A stretch of DNA of 64,000 nucleotides. It comes from a virus. Each line of letters begins with the position of its first letter. The stretch's first letter is position 1. The stretch is taken from the UHGV virus genome UHGV-1378817. One strand, written 5' to 3'. Shown here one piece after another: positions 13,560 through 56,415 of the stretch. The translations under genes were made by a program, and so were the position numbers. The notes under the pieces are model-generated. The model ran no database searches. It was given only the letters and a program-made list of their open reading frames with translations, and had not been told where the DNA came from.

Positions 13560-13810
13560 AGGTGCCTTCTTGTCCGTTTCCACACATAAACTTCATCCAA
13601 GCTCGCGCGGGAGACTCTCAACCGACTCCTTACGGCGCTGGCAAGCTTTCGTCGGTGGTCCACATCAGTGCTCGGCCTTTGGCCTGCGCTATCGCTTCGC
13701 TCCCACACATGTTAACAGACCTGCATGTATGCACTTCTGTTATTGTGTGCACCAGGGAGGCCCGGCATCTCGCCCCTCGTAGGCGAGTGCCAATGAAGGG
13801 CCGACACTAC
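13560..13810. other. GC-rich ORF-poor structured segment (candidate ncRNA)
   Basis: About 250 bp of high GC in an AT-rich genome; hairpins such as GGCC-ttt-GGCC and CGCC-cctcgtag-GCG; the two ORFs called here overlap in different frames and lack SD. Confidence 0.3.
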
Positions 13811-13947
13811 CCATAGTAAGTAATAAATTTAAAACATGGTACTTAGGATCTAGTATATTCTACATAAGTTAAGTATATGTACTTAGTACCATAAGTACTA
13901 GATCTTTTATTTTTTATTATTTAGTTATTTTAGTTATATTCTTTATG

Positions 13948-14028
13948 TGTCCGTATCACGGACAGTTAGTGTCCGTATTACGGGCAGATGTGTCCGCGTG
14001 ACGGACAGTAGTGTCCGTATCACGGACA
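13948..14028. promoter_or_regulatory. array of four 17-bp palindromic operator-like sites (TGTCCGT-N3-ACGGACA)
   Basis: Sites at 13948-13964, 13970-13986, 13991-14007, 14012-14028; 21-22 bp centre-to-centre; sites 1 and 4 identical. Confidence 0.5.
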
Positions 14029-14103
14029 GTTACTAACCTCTGTTCCATAGCGAACATAAAACATACGAATCCTTATAGTACAGATATTTAAGTTTTTACT
14101 GGT

Positions 14104-14454
14104 CTAACCAGTTGTTGACATTCGAATAACCTCTTCTGGTGGCAAAACTTTGGAAAATGTGCATCTTTTACCTCTCCCTTGTGTGGATATTTCAACCACT
14201 CCTGCACATTCTAAAGTTTTAACGCACGCTGCTGCTTTTGTTTTCTTTATCCCAACATCTGCTGCAATTTTCCTTGTGCTGGGTGTGAAGCGTGAACTTC
14301 CTCCAAGCTTATACCAGTTGTGCAGGTAGCAGTATACGATCTTGTCATACAAGTCAAGAACAACAACCTCCCCAGTTGTGTCATTCAAAACTTTTGACAT
14401 AGACAGTATTTCAAGGGGGACTTTAAGATATAGCAGCTTATCCCCATCTTTCAT
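14104..14454 (-). CDS. hypothetical protein (possible DNA-binding protein)
   Basis: 116 aa basic ORF immediately upstream (on minus strand) of the palindrome array. Confidence 0.4.
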   Translation of the reverse strand: MKDGDKLLYLKVPLEILSMSKVLNDTTGEVVVLDLYDKIVYCYLHNWYKLGGSSRFTPSTRKIAADVGIKKTKAAACVKTLECAGVVEISTQGRGKRCTFSKVLPPEEVIRMSTTG

Positions 14455-18982: not shown

Positions 18983-20265
18983 TGCATCAGATCAAAACAA
19001 CACTGTACGCACTGAACAAAGATGGCAGCTACCAACAGTGGAAAGTATTCACGGATGGTGATAAGGTTATCGTAGAGTTTGGCAAGCTTGATGGTAAACT
19101 GCAATACAAAGAGACGGTATGCACGCCTAAGAACGTAGGTCGTGCCAACGAGACTACCGCTGAGCAACAGGCCGAGCTTGAGGCTATTAGCAAGTGGGAA
19201 AAACAAGTCCGTCTTGGGTATGTTGAGAATATGGAAGATTGCGAGCAGGGTGTTGACCTTTTACCCATGCTGGTGCATGACTACCTGAAGCGTGGCAAGG
19301 CTCTTAAATTACCTTGCTGGATCTTGCGTAAGTTAGATGGCCTTCGTCTACTTGTTGTTTTCCAGAATGGTGAGCCCAAATTTATTTCCCGTGGTAATAA
19401 GTCCTACCCTATTCAAGGAAAGCTTCTGGAGCAACTTCGCTCTTTCCACCTCACCACTGGGATTAAACAGCTCGACGGAGAGCTCTATATTCATGGTCTG
19501 CCTCTGCAGAAAATAGTTTCTCTTGCTAAACGATGGCGCACACAGGAAGAAATTCAGGCCGAGATCGATAAAGACTACAAGGCAGATAAAAAACGCCGTC
19601 AGGCTGCTATTAAGGCAGGTTTAGCAACATACAAAAACTTCAATAAGATGGACATTCCTGTTGATGTTGAGCCTGTTCGTGATGATTTGCGTTACGGAGG
19701 GTATTGCAGCTACGACTTAGAGTATCATATTTTCGATATCCCTAGCGATAAGGTGTGGTGGGATCCTGAAACAGAGTCTGGGCGCTGTAAGGATCTTATG
19801 GAGGCAAATGGTGCCATTTCTTCTTTGATGCTTGATCATATTAAGGTTGTTGATGCAGAGCTTGCATATACAGTTGATCGGTGCGAAGAGTCTGTTGGTA
19901 TATTTATGTCTGAGGGATATGAAGGTACCATTATGCGTAACTTCTGTGGTAAGTATGAGTATGGTCAGCGAACATCTGAAGCATTGAAATGGAAAAAGTT
20001 CAACGACGCAGAGGTGAAAGTTATTGACGTTGAGAAAGATAAGAATGATGAAGGTGTTCTTATCTGTGTTGACAAGGAGGGTGTTGTTGTTAAAATGAAG
20101 ATGAAAGGCACGCACGAGGAGCGTAGCTATGACAGGATGCAGGAAATGATCGGCAAGTTTGTCACCTTCAAATATCAAGCAAGGACAGAAGACAACAATT
20201 ACCAATTCCCTGTCGGTATCTGCGTCCGAAATGTTAACCCGGACACTTGGGAGGTGCTGGAATGA
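18982..20265 (+). CDS. ATP-dependent DNA ligase
   Basis: Motif I KLDGLR (K-x-D-G), EGTIMR motif IV-like, LKWKK motif V-like; 427 aa. Confidence 0.65.
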   Translation: MHQIKTTLYALNKDGSYQQWKVFTDGDKVIVEFGKLDGKLQYKETVCTPKNVGRANETTAEQQAELEAISKWEKQVRLGYVENMEDCEQGVDLLPMLVHDYLKRGKALKLPCWILRKLDGLRLLVVFQNGEPKFISRGNKSYPIQGKLLEQLRSFHLTTGIKQLDGELYIHGLPLQKIVSLAKRWRTQEEIQAEIDKDYKADKKRRQAAIKAGLATYKNFNKMDIPVDVEPVRDDLRYGGYCSYDLEYHIFDIPSDKVWWDPETESGRCKDLMEANGAISSLMLDHIKVVDAELAYTVDRCEESVGIFMSEGYEGTIMRNFCGKYEYGQRTSEALKWKKFNDAEVKVIDVEKDKNDEGVLICVDKEGVVVKMKMKGTHEERSYDRMQEMIGKFVTFKYQARTEDNNYQFPVGICVRNVNPDTWEVLE

Positions 20266-53707: not shown

Positions 53708-55021
53708 TAAGTTCTTCTCTTTTCTTTTACCGAGTAATTCGGGTTTTCTGTTCTCTTCGGTTTGAAGGGGTATGGAGATACACCTGAGTGAACAGGGTGA
53801 ACAACCGAACCATTGGCTATGGCATTAGCATGGCGAAGCGGACGGGTGACGAAAGAGGGGCCGGAGGACACCAGTCACTGCCATATGATATATGGGTGAT
53901 AACCTGAAGAGTCTGAATAAGTGTTTAAGTACCAGTCAGAGGAAAAGGTGAATGGTAGCCGAAGGGGGAGGGGGGTTTCTTGTATCTTTAATTTGTATAT
54001 TATGTATACACTTGTAAACCAATATCATCTAGATCTGTTTACCACACAAAGTGGATAGAGACAAATATTACCTATTAAACTTGAATTATTTATAGAAAAT
54101 ACCACAACACCACTTAAGTCTTTGATTTTACACACAAATCTTACAGATATTCAACCTCCATATTTAACATACCTGTAACATATTCCATACTCTACCTGCC
54201 TGATCAATTTCCCCAACTACATCCCTCATATTTCCCCTGTCTGTACTACCCTGCCCCACCGGGAGTCCCGTCATATCTGGCTTTCCAGCAAATATCACAC
54301 CCACAAATATCATGCCTGAAGAGGGTTTCATCCCATAATACCTGCCTTGCCTGAAGAGCGCTTCATACACCACGTAAATTTTTTAATTGACCTCCCCTGC
54401 CCCGCCGGAGAGGTTGGCTTTTCCCACACAGACCTGAAGAGTCAGCCAGAAATATCTGAATAGGCCCAGTTCTACCACGATTTTGACCTGACCTACAGGA
54501 GCGCTGCCAGGCGGACGAAATGGGAATACTTCTCATTCTTATAACAATTCTCAAATATCGAGGCAGTGAGGCAAATTAATAGGCCAGGCCGTTCACACAG
54601 TGGCACAACATTTGCAACCTATCTTGTGGGGGTGAATGAGAATACCTATCATTGTGAGAACCATTATCATTACGGGCAATTTAACATAATACCCATTATG
54701 CGCACCACTGGTGATACATACAGGGATTGATAACACGAGTTACAGTTTACGCATATAACAATCATATTTCTTACTATTTGTGTGGGATATAGTTAGCAGC
54801 CGATAGATTAGATATTGACCTGTGGACTTCCAACCGTCTAGACGTCTAAGCGCCCACACAACAAGGCTTATACATACATTACTGAATGTAAACAGGGCCG
54901 CAAAAATGCTACCATACCAGTTTGTAAATTTTCATGCAGCACTTGACAAAGAGGAGGAAAACTTGTCTGACACAATGTCACACAATATGACACAATAACG
55001 GCTGTTACCATTCCATATCTC

Positions 55022-55077
55022 ACTGTTTACGCATAGACTGTTTACGCCTGGATAGTTTACACCTTGACAGTTTACAC
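55022..55077. repeat. four direct iteron-like repeats with exact 15-bp periodicity (ACTGTTTACGC x2, ATAGTTTACAC, ACAGTTTACAC)
   Basis: Repeat starts at 55022, 55037, 55052, 55067; further copies of the core at 54742-54752 and 55493-55502. Confidence 0.7.
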
Positions 55078-55150
55078 AGATATGATAAGCCATGACATTC
55101 GTTTGCATGAAAACAATTAGCAAGTTAACAATTAACAAGTTAATAATATA

Positions 55151-55303
55151 TGACATAATATAAAAGCAGGGCAACTATTAGAAGATCTATAGTTGCCTTG
55201 CTTGTTATGTCATGATTAACTAAATACAAGGCAACTATGATCTGATTAATAGTTTGCAGACAAACTATCACGGGGGTGATGGTTACTGCTTTTATATTAT
55301 GTC
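55151..55303. repeat. ~150-bp element bounded by perfect 18-bp inverted repeats, containing internal GGCAACTAT palindromes
   Basis: Left arm GACATAATATAAAAGCAG (55152-55169), right arm CTGCTTTTATATTATGTC (55286-55303); inside, GGCAACTAT-N10-ATAGTTGCC. Confidence 0.6.
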
Positions 55304-55946
55304 GCGACTCCGTCGCGCCATGCCATTCGTTTGCATAGTTGCCTTATTGTTACAGATAAAATAATTGTATTGTTAATTATTTCTTATCTTTCTATTAGTC
55401 ATCTAATGATTCCGGTTAGTATAGTAACGTACAGTAAACATTAGACGACTAAATATTTCTATGTTTATGATAACCTATCGTGACAATTCCGGACTGTTTA
55501 CGAAAAATGTTGACACCTGAGCTGATTTATGTTATGCAATTTAAACGAATAATTATTTTATGCAGGTATTGACTATTCCGTTATTCTATGGTTGGAATAA
55601 ATACTTAGCAAGCTATAGAATGGTGAGCGTACGTAAATTCTGAGATTTGTCGGCTATAGTTATACTCGATTTTTCACGTAGAACACGCTTTTTGGTTTGT
55701 GTAAGTGTATGACTTATAAAGATTTTTAGTTGTTGACAAGATATTGAAGATGTGCATCAGGTTAAATTTTGTGCAATAGCTGCATTACGTGCAATTTTGG
55801 AAGGAAAACTGGTAAAAATAGCACCGATACCACACAATGAAAGGTTATGCAATAGCTATTTTATATGTATATTTGTACAGTGTGCAGGATTGATGGCTCG
55901 TCAATTATTCCACTTGCCAGGTAGGGCCGTTTATGGTAGGGGAAGA

Positions 55947-55977
55947 GCAGACAAAAAGAAAGGGGCCTAAGCCCCTT
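55947..55977 (-). terminator. intrinsic terminator closing the minus-strand gene block
   Basis: AGGGGC-ctaa-GCCCCT hairpin followed on minus strand by TCTTTTTGT, about 20 nt after stop of 55996-56415. Confidence 0.6.
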
Positions 55978-55995
55978 GATAATTCAGTTAAAAAA

Positions 55996-56415
55996 TTATA
56001 ATGATTCGTATATTTCAAAAATCCGATTTGCCAGGTCGTTACGGTAGCGGAATTTTTCCTCACGTTTGATCATCAGATCTTTAAAGCCGTATTCTTTAAG
56101 CACTTCATTAACTTTATGGCGGCATACCTTCATATTATCTTGAGCGTCACCAATAAACTTGTTGCTGTGGTGCATTGCTTTAATTTCTTCTTCCAGGACC
56201 AGGGCAACTACCCGTACCGGATCAAGCTGGTAGGCGGTAACATCGATGCGGCATTGTAGACGGCTTTTAACGTCTGCCACCGGATATACTGCAACCTCTT
56301 CCCCGTCAACATTGACAATAATTAGTTTACCATCGATTTCGAATCCTTTCGCCGCCGGACCGTGACAAAAAGCGTTATCAAAGCTATATGCCGGATTATT
56401 AGATTTAATGTTCAT
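55996..56415 (-). CDS. hypothetical protein
   Basis: 139 aa ORF with own promoter and terminator. Confidence 0.45.
   Translation of the reverse strand: MNIKSNNPAYSFDNAFCHGPAAKGFEIDGKLIIVNVDGEEVAVYPVADVKSRLQCRIDVTAYQLDPVRVVALVLEEEIKAMHHSNKFIGDAQDNMKVCRHKVNEVLKEYGFKDLMIKREEKFRYRNDLANRIFEIYESL

What the first reader, a model, noticed from the sequence alone, without database searches (positions are those of the whole stretch)
55022..55077. Four iteron-like direct repeats at exact 15-bp periodicity, with extra copies nearby
ACTGTTTACGC, ACTGTTTACGC, ATAGTTTACAC and ACAGTTTACAC start at 55022, 55037, 55052 and 55067. Further copies of the GTTTAC(G/A)C core lie at 54742 and 55493, the latter abutting a TTGACA promoter box. 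Direct repeats with fixed phasing are characteristic of replication-initiator binding sites or of a transcription-factor array.
Basis: seen in the sequence. Interest (0 to 1): 0.65.

Follow-up and report, generated by a model that had tools for sequence, protein, structure and literature searches.

The report
Protein-binding repeat array beside phage genome end
The four 15-bp-spaced repeats are real and look like docking sites for a DNA-binding protein, but they lie 55 bp inside the left end of an rV5-like coliphage chromosome, so they more likely serve end cutting or packaging than replication, for which a better origin candidate lies 41 kb away.

Summary
ACTGTTTACGC (twice), ATAGTTTACAC and ACAGTTTACAC start at 55022, 55037, 55052 and 55067. 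The degenerate 11-mer occurs 5 times in 64 kb against 0.27 expected.

The window is an rV5-like coliphage (Vequintavirus). Published termini and nine GenBank records place the 458-bp direct terminal repeat (DTR) at 54510-54967, so the array starts 55 bp inside the left chromosome end.

In 22 genomes the zone between the DTR and a conserved 20-mer varies in length. It holds a 10-bp array that starts exactly at the DTR boundary, then this array. Copy number runs from 0 to at least 8, always at 15-16 bp spacing. An 11-bp core, A-Y-W-G-T-T-Y-A-C-R-Y, is conserved while the 4-5 bp spacer is not. That is the signature of a protein-binding site.

Genome-wide, the motif is confined to this terminal zone.

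A classical origin-like locus lies elsewhere, at 13905-14032. It has four palindromic 21-22 bp iterons and an AT-rich tract beside a gene for a RepA_N-like winged-helix protein.

Best reading, at confidence 0.4: a recognition platform for end processing or packaging, comparable to T7 SRL, P1 pac or lambda cosB. Origin iterons score about 0.2. No binding protein was identified, and phage V18 lacks the array. Interest is moderate.

The parts
54510..54967 (.). Direct terminal repeat (458 bp) of the virion chromosome, present once in this window. 54510 is the left physical end and 54967 the right physical end.
   Evidence: Korf 2019 (PMC6563267) reports a 458-bp terminal redundancy for HdK5 and EdH4. 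Dias 2020 (PMC7471380) reports 459 bp for Gotham. The HdK5 record starts at GGCGGACGAAATGGG and ends at AAAACTTGTC. Eight further records start or end exactly at these points.
54742..54752 (+). Isolated copy S1 of the 11-mer (ACAGTTTACGC), inside the terminal repeat.
   Evidence: The core is invariant in 22 of 22 genomes. At motif positions that vary among array units, the changes are at -1, +6 and +7.
54968..54997 (+). Array A: three copies of a 10-bp repeat (TGACACAATG / TCACACAATA / TGACACAATA) that starts exactly at the terminal-repeat boundary. Relatives carry several more such units.
   Evidence: family D1; period 10, score 42; segments from relatives.
54996..55007 (.). Conserved palindromic linker TAACGGCTGTTA between arrays A and B.
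   Evidence: Read from the sequence. It is present as AATAACGRCTGTTAYYATT in most relatives.
55022..55077 (+). Array B, the finding: four 11-bp sites AYWGTTTACRC at a 15-bp period.
55089..55108 (+). Conserved 20-mer GCCATGACATTCGTTTGCAT, first copy. It marks the right edge of the variable zone.
   Evidence: family D7. It served as the anchor found in all 21 aligned genomes.
55112..55147 (+). AT-rich tandem repeat (15-bp unit AACAATTAACAAGTT, 2.4 copies). Local GC is 0.28-0.30.
55153..55302 (.). Large interrupted palindrome or hairpin with 18-nt perfect outer arms. The arms begin with the array-A-type word GACATAAT.
   Evidence: I1, I7, I11. DNA fold -50.9 kcal/mol, z = -8.5. GACATAAT at 55152 (+) and 55296 (-).
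55317..55336 (+). Second copy of the 20-mer (GCCATGCCATTCGTTTGCAT).
   Evidence: family D7, 95% identity, 228 bp from copy 1.
55493..55538 (+). Isolated copy S2 (ACTGTTTACGA, 55493-55503), then an A-tract and a sigma-70-like promoter: TTGACA at 55510-55515, a 17-nt spacer, and TG-extended TATGCA at 55533-55538. The promoter points rightward.
   Evidence: Read from the sequence. The block is strongly conserved in relatives while the DNA just upstream varies. The promoter call is an inference; the consensus scanner did not list it.

Best explanation
The four repeats are head-to-tail binding sites for a sequence-specific DNA-binding protein, not yet identified. Each site has an 11-bp core, A-Y-W-G-T-T-Y-A-C-R-Y, and a free 4-5 bp spacer. 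Together with the 10-bp array that starts exactly at the terminal-repeat boundary, they would form a nucleoprotein platform just inside the left end of the rV5-type chromosome. I propose that this platform positions or limits the terminase or end-processing machinery at the concatemer junction. It would thereby help define the cut at 54967|54968 and the regeneration of the 458-bp terminal repeat. Shown here: the repeats exist, the core is conserved and the spacer is not, the period is kept at 15-16 bp, copy number changes quickly, the motif is confined to the terminal zone, and the array lies 55 bp from a physical genome end as mapped in relatives. Inferred: that a protein binds, that it belongs to the packaging or end-processing machinery, and the direction of action.
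For: Position. The terminal repeat is 54510-54967. Array A begins at 54968 and array B at 55022.

Selection on the core. In 46 distinct units, position -3 is A in 45, positions -2, -1, +6 and +7 are Y, W, R and Y, and the spacer positions carry 0.02-0.5 bit. The period is always 15 or 16 bp, or 30-32 bp across a decayed unit.

Confinement. In the complete genome of the closest relative the motif occurs 6 times, 4 of them in this zone. The other 2 are at chance level, with 2.9 expected for the same pattern. In the window all 5 matches lie within 54742-55077.

Site S1 inside the terminal repeat has an invariant core in all 22 genomes, and within the motif it varies only at -1, +6 and +7, positions that also vary among array units.

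A different genus, Phapecoctavirus, also has a repeat unit of variable copy number beginning at the right boundary of its 328-bp terminal repeat.

A separate, better origin candidate exists.

Precedents, from my own knowledge and not tested here: T7 SRL/SRR repeat arrays flank its terminal repeat, P1 pac has hexamer clusters flanking the cut, and lambda cosB has R sites next to cosN.
Against: No small terminase subunit or other binding protein was identified. The genes just upstream of the large terminase gene match spanin families, and neighbouring ORFs have no DNA-binding domain hits.

V18 lacks array B altogether, and CM1, PDX and FFH2 keep one unit. The array therefore cannot be strictly essential unless S1, S2 or array A are redundant with it.

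The physical ends were mapped in relatives, not in this phage.

No IHF consensus site lies in the zone, unlike lambda cosB and P1 pac.

There is no experimental evidence for binding.
Confidence: 0.4

Rival explanations
1. The repeats are replication-origin iterons. A phage initiator binds them and opens the adjacent AT-rich stretch at 55110-55165. This could be a second origin.
For: The anatomy fits: direct repeats, followed within 35 bp by a region of GC 0.28-0.30 and a large palindrome. The locus is a 1.9-kb non-coding gap. A local minimum of cumulative GC skew falls at about 55050-55100 within that gap.
Against: The core is 11 bp at a 15-16 bp period, not 17-22 bp at about two helical turns. 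Copy number runs from 0 to at least 8 and V18 lacks the array. The only initiator-like gene (14104-14454) is 41 kb away and has its own four palindromic 21-22 bp iterons and an AT-rich tract directly beside it. That locus is conserved at 91-99.7% with 3-4 copies in 119 records. The skew dip spans only about 2 kb and rests on C-rich and G-rich words.
Confidence: 0.2
2. The repeats are an operator or titration array for a transcription regulator. That regulator controls the conserved rightward promoter at 55510, or other terminal promoters, through sites S1, the array and S2.
For: S2 lies at about -48 of a conserved TTGACA-17-TATGCA promoter, and that block is more conserved than its upstream flank. 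The array has the conservation pattern of a binding site.
Against: The motif is not used at other promoters in the genome. Promoter-like sites are not enriched in the zone: 14 found against 9.5 +/- 3.1 expected. The array is 430 bp from the promoter. The conservation of S2 can be explained by the promoter's own A-tract or UP-like element. No gene or Rfam RNA lies downstream of that promoter.
Confidence: 0.15
3. The repeats are functionless tandem repeats, made and lost by slippage or unequal recombination near the recombinogenic genome ends.
For: Copy number changes between very close relatives. The window has 4 units and A51.2 has 3, with 99% identical flanks. One phage has none. Assemblies often break or duplicate here.
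Against: Slippage would homogenise whole units. Instead the 11-bp core is kept while the spacers diverge to about zero information. The period is held at 15-16 bp across all lineages. Single copies S1 and S2, which are not tandem, keep an invariant GTTTAC core.
Confidence: 0.1
4. The repeats are sites for a host protein with a similar half-site, such as DnaA, or an OmpR-family regulator such as PhoP or CpxR.
For: GTTTACACA in unit 4 matches the relaxed DnaA box TTWTNCACA at 8 of 9 positions. TGTTTA and TTTAC resemble PhoP and CpxR half-sites. These consensus sequences are from my own knowledge.
Against: The other units match the DnaA box at only 6-7 of 9 positions. The positions DnaA needs are only 52-61% conserved (+6 A, +7 C, +8 A), while the invariant A at -3 lies outside the box. 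OmpR-family dimers need 10-11 bp spacing, and here it is 15-16 bp.
Confidence: 0.05

Closest known systems
T7-group SRL/SRR short-repeat arrays flanking the terminal repeat (Dunn and Studier 1983; my own knowledge, not retrieved here)
   Same: Both are arrays of short direct repeats in the unique DNA directly next to a short direct terminal repeat at the concatemer junction. Inverted-repeat or hairpin-forming DNA lies nearby. Their function has been linked to concatemer processing rather than to the origin.
   Different: The repeat sequence, unit length and phage lineage differ: 11-bp core at a 15-16 bp period in a myovirus, against 7-bp units in a podovirus. On the other flank only three CCTGAAGAG words lie within 200 bp of the boundary. 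No sequence homology was tested or is expected.
P1 pac site and lambda cosB (terminase small-subunit recognition sites; my own knowledge)
   Same: Both have several short sequence-specific protein-binding elements placed tens of base pairs from the terminase cut. They lie on the DNA that stays with the chromosome end.
   Different: P1 uses Dam-methylatable TGATCA/G hexamers on both sides of the cut, plus IHF. Lambda uses three 16-bp R sites plus IHF. Here there is no GATC, no IHF consensus, no identified small terminase subunit and a highly variable copy number.
Iteron-type origins (lambda ori with O protein; plasmid RepA or RepA_N iterons)
   Same: Phased direct repeats lie next to an AT-rich stretch.
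   Different: The unit is shorter and the period is 15-16 bp. Copy number is not stable, and there is no adjacent initiator gene. The same genome has a far closer match to this class at 13905-14032.
T5 injection-stop or terminal non-coding repeat region (my own knowledge)
   Same: Both are a large gene-free region rich in direct and inverted repeats, associated with a terminal repeat.
   Different: The T5 terminal repeat is about 10 kb and carries pre-early genes. Here the repeat is 458 bp and gene-free, and there is no evidence for two-step DNA entry.

Membership tests
Iteron-type replication origin | Several direct repeats of about 17-22 bp phased at about two helical turns | tested here: not met
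   The informative core is 11 bp and the period is 15 or 16 bp in all 21 genomes that carry the array.
Iteron-type replication origin | Adjacent AT-rich unwinding region | tested here: met
   GC is 0.28-0.30 at 55050-55200, starting about 35 bp after the array.
Iteron-type replication origin | Cognate initiator gene in or beside the origin | tested here: not met
   Flanking ORFs have no DNA-binding or initiator domains. The only initiator-like gene is at 14104-14454 and has its own iterons.
Iteron-type replication origin | Stable presence and copy number among close relatives | tested here: not met
   Copy number ranges from 0 to at least 8 and the array is absent in V18. The 13.9-kb locus, by contrast, keeps 3-4 copies in 119 records.
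Iteron-type replication origin | Replication initiates there | not testable with these tools
   This needs marker-frequency sequencing or 2D gels of infected cells.
Terminase recognition site (pac/cos type) | Lies next to the mature chromosome end or cut site | tested here: met
   The array begins 55 bp from the terminal-repeat boundary at 54967|54968, and array A begins at 54968. The boundaries come from nine records and two papers.
Terminase recognition site (pac/cos type) | Multiple short sequence-specific protein-binding elements | tested here: inconclusive
   The conservation pattern fits binding sites, but no binding data exist.
Terminase recognition site (pac/cos type) | Bound by the small terminase subunit and required for packaging | not testable with these tools
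   No small terminase subunit is recognisable. V18's lack of the array argues against strict necessity.
T7-type terminal-repeat-flanking repeat arrays | Short repeat arrays in unique DNA on both flanks of the terminal repeat | tested here: inconclusive
   The right flank has arrays A and B. The left flank has three CCTGAAGAG words at 54315, 54350 and 54433, but the word also occurs elsewhere, partly in what looks like coding sequence.
DnaA-box cluster | Matches to TTWTNCACA with a conserved CACA | tested here: not met
   One unit matches 8 of 9 and the others 6-7 of 9. Positions +6, +7 and +8 are only 52-61% A, C and A, and the invariant A at -3 is outside the box.
OmpR/PhoB-family response-regulator boxes (PhoP, CpxR) | Direct half-sites spaced 10-11 bp centre to centre | tested here: not met
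   Spacing is 15-16 bp throughout.

The most novel reading that the evidence does not exclude
Arrays A and B would together be the missing packaging signal of rV5-type short-terminal-repeat myoviruses, which have no recognisable small terminase subunit. An unidentified protein would polymerise head to tail on 15-16-bp-spaced 11-mers just inside the left end. That filament would set where terminase cuts and how the 458-bp repeat is duplicated. The rapid change in copy number would tune packaging or help the phage escape satellites or defences that read the same signal.
Probability: 0.25. Interest if true: 0.65.

Novelty: new variant of a known kind. Interest (0 to 1): 0.45.

Why it matters
rV5-like phages (Vequintavirus) are common coliphages, present in the BASEL collection and in phage-typing and candidate therapeutic sets. 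How they define their 458-bp terminal repeat and recognise their own DNA for packaging is unknown, and no small terminase subunit is annotated. A conserved 11-bp site arrayed next to the chromosome end is a concrete, testable handle for finding the recognition protein, for engineering these phages, and for explaining why assemblies break or duplicate at this point. The work also redirects the search for the origin: the rV5 genome paper could not define one, and the 13.9-kb iteron locus is a better place to look than this array.

Tried and rejected
I did not inspect them and take them for unrelated 15-bp-period repeats. This was not informative.

2. Rfam found no RNA family in 53900-56100 at E<=1, and only tRNAs in the whole window.

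3. The promoter and terminator scan showed no enrichment of promoter-like sites in the zone.

4. Pfam and PHROGs on ten flanking small ORFs gave no DNA-binding domains. The 'DNA translocase FtsK' and 'Rel homology' labels in some GenBank records are not supported.

5. The 139-aa first gene (55996-56415) was considered as the binding protein and rejected. It is about 90% identical in Phapecoctavirus, whose terminal zone has no GTTTAC array.

6. The search for related loci with that protein returned only 3 IMG/VR loci.

7. No IHF consensus site lies in the zone.

8. DnaA, PhoP, CpxR, Tus, MatP and LexA similarities were considered from memory and rejected on spacing or on the conservation pattern.

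9. The I29 and CM1 duplications of the terminal repeat were examined as possible end-junction evidence. I29 is a scrambled assembly and CM1 is ambiguous.

10. Single-sequence AlphaFold of the winged-helix protein was unusable at pLDDT 43. It was redone with an alignment.

11. Literature searches found no description of these repeats or of an rV5-type origin.

Full report
**1. Observation**

All are on the + strand with an exact 15-bp period.
- The pattern AYWGTTTACRC has five matches in the 64-kb window against 0.27 expected. No shuffle out of 100 reaches five, and all five matches lie between 54742 and 55077.
- Tandem Repeats Finder calls the array independently: period 15, score 60.
- The shorter word WGTTTAC is also clustered, with 9 of its 30 window matches between 54036 and 55501. 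Two are on the - strand, at 54888 and 55434.
- Two details need correcting. The copy at 55493 is ACTGTTTACGA, and the TTGACA box starts 6 nt after it, at 55510.

**2. What the window is, and where the array sits**

The region 54500-56000 matches 120 phage records at 80-95% identity. All are rV5-like coliphages (Vequintavirus), including records mislabelled as Campylobacter phages.

The array lies in a gene-free gap of about 1.9 kb (about 54058-55996) between convergent gene blocks. Genes on the left are on the + strand and genes on the right are on the - strand. The rV5 genome paper draws this gap as a 'non-coding' box. It reports a skew change there and could not define an origin (PMC3606486).

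Vequintaviruses have a short direct terminal repeat (DTR). It is 458 bp in HdK5 and EdH4 (PMC6563267) and 459 bp in Gotham (PMC7471380).
- The HdK5 record begins GGCGGACGAAATGGG, which is window 54510. It ends ...AAAACTTGTC, which is window 54967.
- Eight further records from several laboratories start or end exactly at these two points: YN3, bov10K2, bov11CS3, bov22_2, bov25_3, Pr121LW, ECP2303 and ECP2309.

By homology, the DTR of this phage is therefore 54510-54967. The array occupies roughly positions 513-568 of the packaged chromosome, 55 bp inside the right boundary of the left terminal repeat. These ends were mapped in relatives, not in this phage.

**3. Comparative anatomy**

I extracted the stretch between the DTR boundary (..AAACTTGTC|) and a conserved 20-mer (GCCATGMCATTCGTTTGCAT) from 21 genomes, and read a 22nd, I29, directly. 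Excluding V18, where the first 20-mer is deleted, the stretch ranges from 126 to 239 bp. It has a fixed order:
- Array A: TGACAYAAT-like units at about 10 bp. It has three copies here and more in several relatives, and always starts at the first base after the DTR.
- A conserved palindromic linker, AATAACGRCTGTTAYYATT.
- Array B, which is the finding.

Array B behaves as follows:
- Counting units with an intact RTTYAC core, V18 has none; CM1, PDX and FFH2 have one; nomine and LL12 two; A51.2 and phita32 three; the window has four; HdK5, DrSchubert and HMD-6 five; Murica and one IMG/VR contig eight.
- Spacing between cores is always 15 or 16 bp, or 30-32 bp where a decayed unit intervenes. The window-type arrays use 15 bp and the HdK5-type arrays use 16 bp.
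- The window and its closest relative A51.2 (DTR 99% identical) differ by exactly one unit. Gain and loss are therefore recent and frequent.

**4. Selection on the core**

I compiled 46 distinct units, chosen only by RTTYAC. The positions not used for selection still carry information:
- Position -3 is A in 45 of 46 units.
- Position -2 is C or T, -1 is mostly T or A, +6 is mostly A or G, and +7 is C or T.
- Positions -5, -4 and +8 to +10 carry 0.02-0.5 bit.

The conserved object is thus the 11-mer A-Y-W-G-T-T-Y-A-C-R-Y, separated by 4-5 unconstrained bases. Slippage alone would homogenise whole units. A conserved core with free spacers and a held period is what a row of protein-binding sites looks like.

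The isolated copy S1 inside the DTR (54742) has an invariant core in 22 of 22 genomes. Within the motif it varies only at -1, +6 and +7, positions that also vary among array units.

The 16-bp period of many arrays rules out a coding repeat.

**5. Is the motif used elsewhere?**

I assembled the complete genome of A51.2 (137,300 bp) and scanned both strands.
- AYWGTTYACRY occurs six times. Four are in the DTR and array zone.
- The other two are at 19114, inside a large gene, and at 126051. They are what chance predicts, at 2.9 expected for that pattern.

The motif is therefore not a genome-wide promoter or operator word. It is specific to the terminal zone.

**6. A better origin candidate elsewhere**

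While looking for a possible binding protein, I found that ORF 14104-14454 (- strand, 116 aa) matches PHROG families annotated 'replication initiation protein' (8.5e-80 and 5e-6).
- Its Pfam hits are winged-helix families just below threshold, HTH_36 and DUF6945.
- An AlphaFold model built with an alignment has pLDDT 84.
- After an uncharacterised Vibrio domain, that model is most similar to the N-terminal iteron-binding domains of staphylococcal RepA_N plasmid initiators: 4pql, 4pt7 and the 5kbj Rep-DNA complex. Foldseek E-values are 3e-4 to 3e-3 and TM-scores 0.56-0.60.

Directly downstream of this gene lie four direct repeats of 21-22 bp at 13947-14032. Each contains a 17-bp palindrome of the form TGTCCG-N5-CGGRCA; two units read TGTCCGTATCACGGACA. 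An AT-rich tract with T-runs precedes them at 13905-13937.
- The palindrome occurs nowhere else in the window or in the whole A51.2 genome.
- The locus is conserved at 91-99.7% in 119 records. Its length varies by one unit, giving three or four copies.
- Several RefSeq records already call the gene a replication initiation protein.

This is lambda-ori-like anatomy: palindromic iterons at two helical turns, an AT-rich tract and an adjacent initiator. It makes the GTTTAC array a less likely origin, although a second origin cannot be excluded.

**7. Surroundings of the array**

To the right of the array lie these features:
- The 20-mer, at 55089.
- An AT-rich 15-bp tandem at 55112-55147, with GC 0.28-0.30.
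- A 150-nt interrupted palindrome at 55153-55302. Its DNA fold is -50.9 kcal/mol with z = -8.5. Its arms begin with the array-A-type word GACATAAT.
- A second copy of the 20-mer, at 55317.
- Copy S2 at 55493. It sits at about -48 of a conserved sigma-70-like promoter: TTGACA, a 17-nt spacer and a TG-extended TATGCA, pointing rightward. The conservation of S2 may simply reflect the promoter's own upstream element.

To the left of the DTR lie three CCTGAAGAG words, at 54315, 54350 and 54433.

Within the gap the GC skew is inverted relative to the flanking genes, and the local cumulative minimum falls near 55050-55100. This is weak evidence, because it spans only about 2 kb.

No Rfam family matches. 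No IHF consensus site lies in the zone.

**8. A parallel in another genus**

The first gene to the right of the gap (55996-56415, 139 aa) has about 90% identical homologues in Phapecoctavirus. There too it is the first gene next to a terminal non-coding zone of about 1.2-1.6 kb.
- Phage Mt1B1_P17 has a 328-bp DTR.
- At its right boundary begins a palindrome-containing unit of about 60 bp. It is present once in Mt1B1_P17 and twice in UP17.
- There is no GTTTAC array.

Variable repeats starting at the right DTR boundary thus recur with different sequences. This fits a role tied to the terminus. It also argues that the 139-aa protein is not the protein that binds the array.

**9. Mechanism**

The most likely reading, at confidence 0.4, is that arrays A and B form a nucleoprotein platform at the concatemer junction. 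The platform would position or limit the terminase or end-processing machinery, and so help define the cut at 54967|54968 and the duplication of the 458-bp repeat. From my own knowledge, this is comparable in logic to the T7 SRL/SRR arrays beside its terminal repeat, to the P1 pac hexamer clusters and to lambda cosB.

What is shown: position, conservation pattern, confinement to the terminal zone and rapid turnover. What is inferred: binding, the identity of the protein and the role.

Weaknesses:
- No small terminase subunit is recognisable. The genes next to the large terminase gene match spanin families.
- V18 lacks the array, and three phages keep a single unit. The array is therefore accessory, or redundant with S1, S2 or array A.

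Rival readings and their confidences:
- Origin iterons, 0.2.
- A regulator array for terminal promoters, 0.15.
- Neutral tandem repeats, 0.1.
- Host DnaA-like or response-regulator-like sites, 0.05.

**10. Novelty and verdict**

I found no description of these repeats in the literature searched. GenBank records at most carry an unnamed repeat_region.

The array is a new variant of a known kind: short repeat arrays beside phage terminal repeats, or terminase recognition sites. Interest is moderate at 0.45. It gives a concrete handle on how short-DTR myoviruses without a recognisable small terminase subunit mark their ends, but its function is untested and it is dispensable in at least one relative.

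Noticed in passing
window 13905-14032, with ORF 14104-14454 (- strand): A candidate replication origin. Four direct 21-22 bp repeats each contain a 17-bp palindrome of the form TGTCCG-N5-CGGRCA, preceded by an AT-rich tract with T-runs. They lie directly downstream of a 116-aa winged-helix protein whose model resembles RepA_N plasmid initiator N-terminal domains. The palindrome is unique in the genome, and the locus is conserved with 3-4 copies in 119 records. The rV5 genome paper could not define an origin.
   Followed up: partly
window 55153-55302: A 150-nt interrupted palindrome with 18-nt perfect outer arms. Its DNA fold is -50.9 kcal/mol with z = -8.5. It is flanked by two copies of a 20-mer, GCCATGMCATTCGTTTGCAT, at 55089 and 55317. 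It could be a cruciform, a hairpin used in terminal-repeat duplication, or a small RNA. Rfam has no match.
   Followed up: partly
window 55510-55538: A conserved sigma-70-like promoter (TTGACA, 17-nt spacer, TG-extended TATGCA, upstream A-tract). It points rightward into gene-free DNA and then runs antisense to the first - strand genes. No product was identified.
   Followed up: partly
window 54315, 54350, 54433 (also 53253 and 53903): CCTGAAGAG occurs 8 times in the window, all on the + strand, against 0.52 expected. Five copies cluster in the 1.3 kb left of the terminal repeat, and two of these form a 35-bp tandem, CCTGAAGAGNNNTTCAT. The three distant copies look like coding Pro-Glu-Glu.
   Followed up: partly
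window 54840-54847: A perfect MetJ-box-like palindrome, AGACGTCT, lies inside the terminal repeat, preceded by a 6-of-8 second box (AACCGTCT). It may be chance.
   Followed up: no
window 54637-54671; L144 positions 55-75 and 235-255: The word GAGAAT-N4-TATCATT occurs twice in the Vequintavirus terminal repeat. Similar words (GAGAATAATTATCATT, GAGAATGATTATTATT) occur in the Phapecoctavirus terminal repeat, although the two repeats are otherwise unrelated.
   Followed up: no
window 55996-56415 (- strand); loci L144 and L145: The 139-aa first gene at the left chromosome end is about 90% identical between Vequintavirus and Phapecoctavirus. In both it is the first gene beside the terminal non-coding zone. 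Phapecoctavirus Mt1B1_P17 has a 328-bp terminal repeat, followed by a palindrome-containing unit of about 60 bp whose copy number varies.
   Followed up: partly
L013 (CM1), L150 (I29), L023 (V18): Public assemblies are unreliable at this locus. CM1 carries a tandem duplication of the terminal repeat plus array A. I29 has a scrambled partial duplication with a palindromic joint. V18 lacks array B and the first 20-mer and has a poly-A tract followed by a stem-loop module that I29 also carries.
   Followed up: partly
window 13560-13800: A GC-rich stretch of about 240 bp, apparently structured, lies in the intergenic gap next to the origin-like repeats. It has no Rfam match at gathering thresholds.
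   Followed up: no
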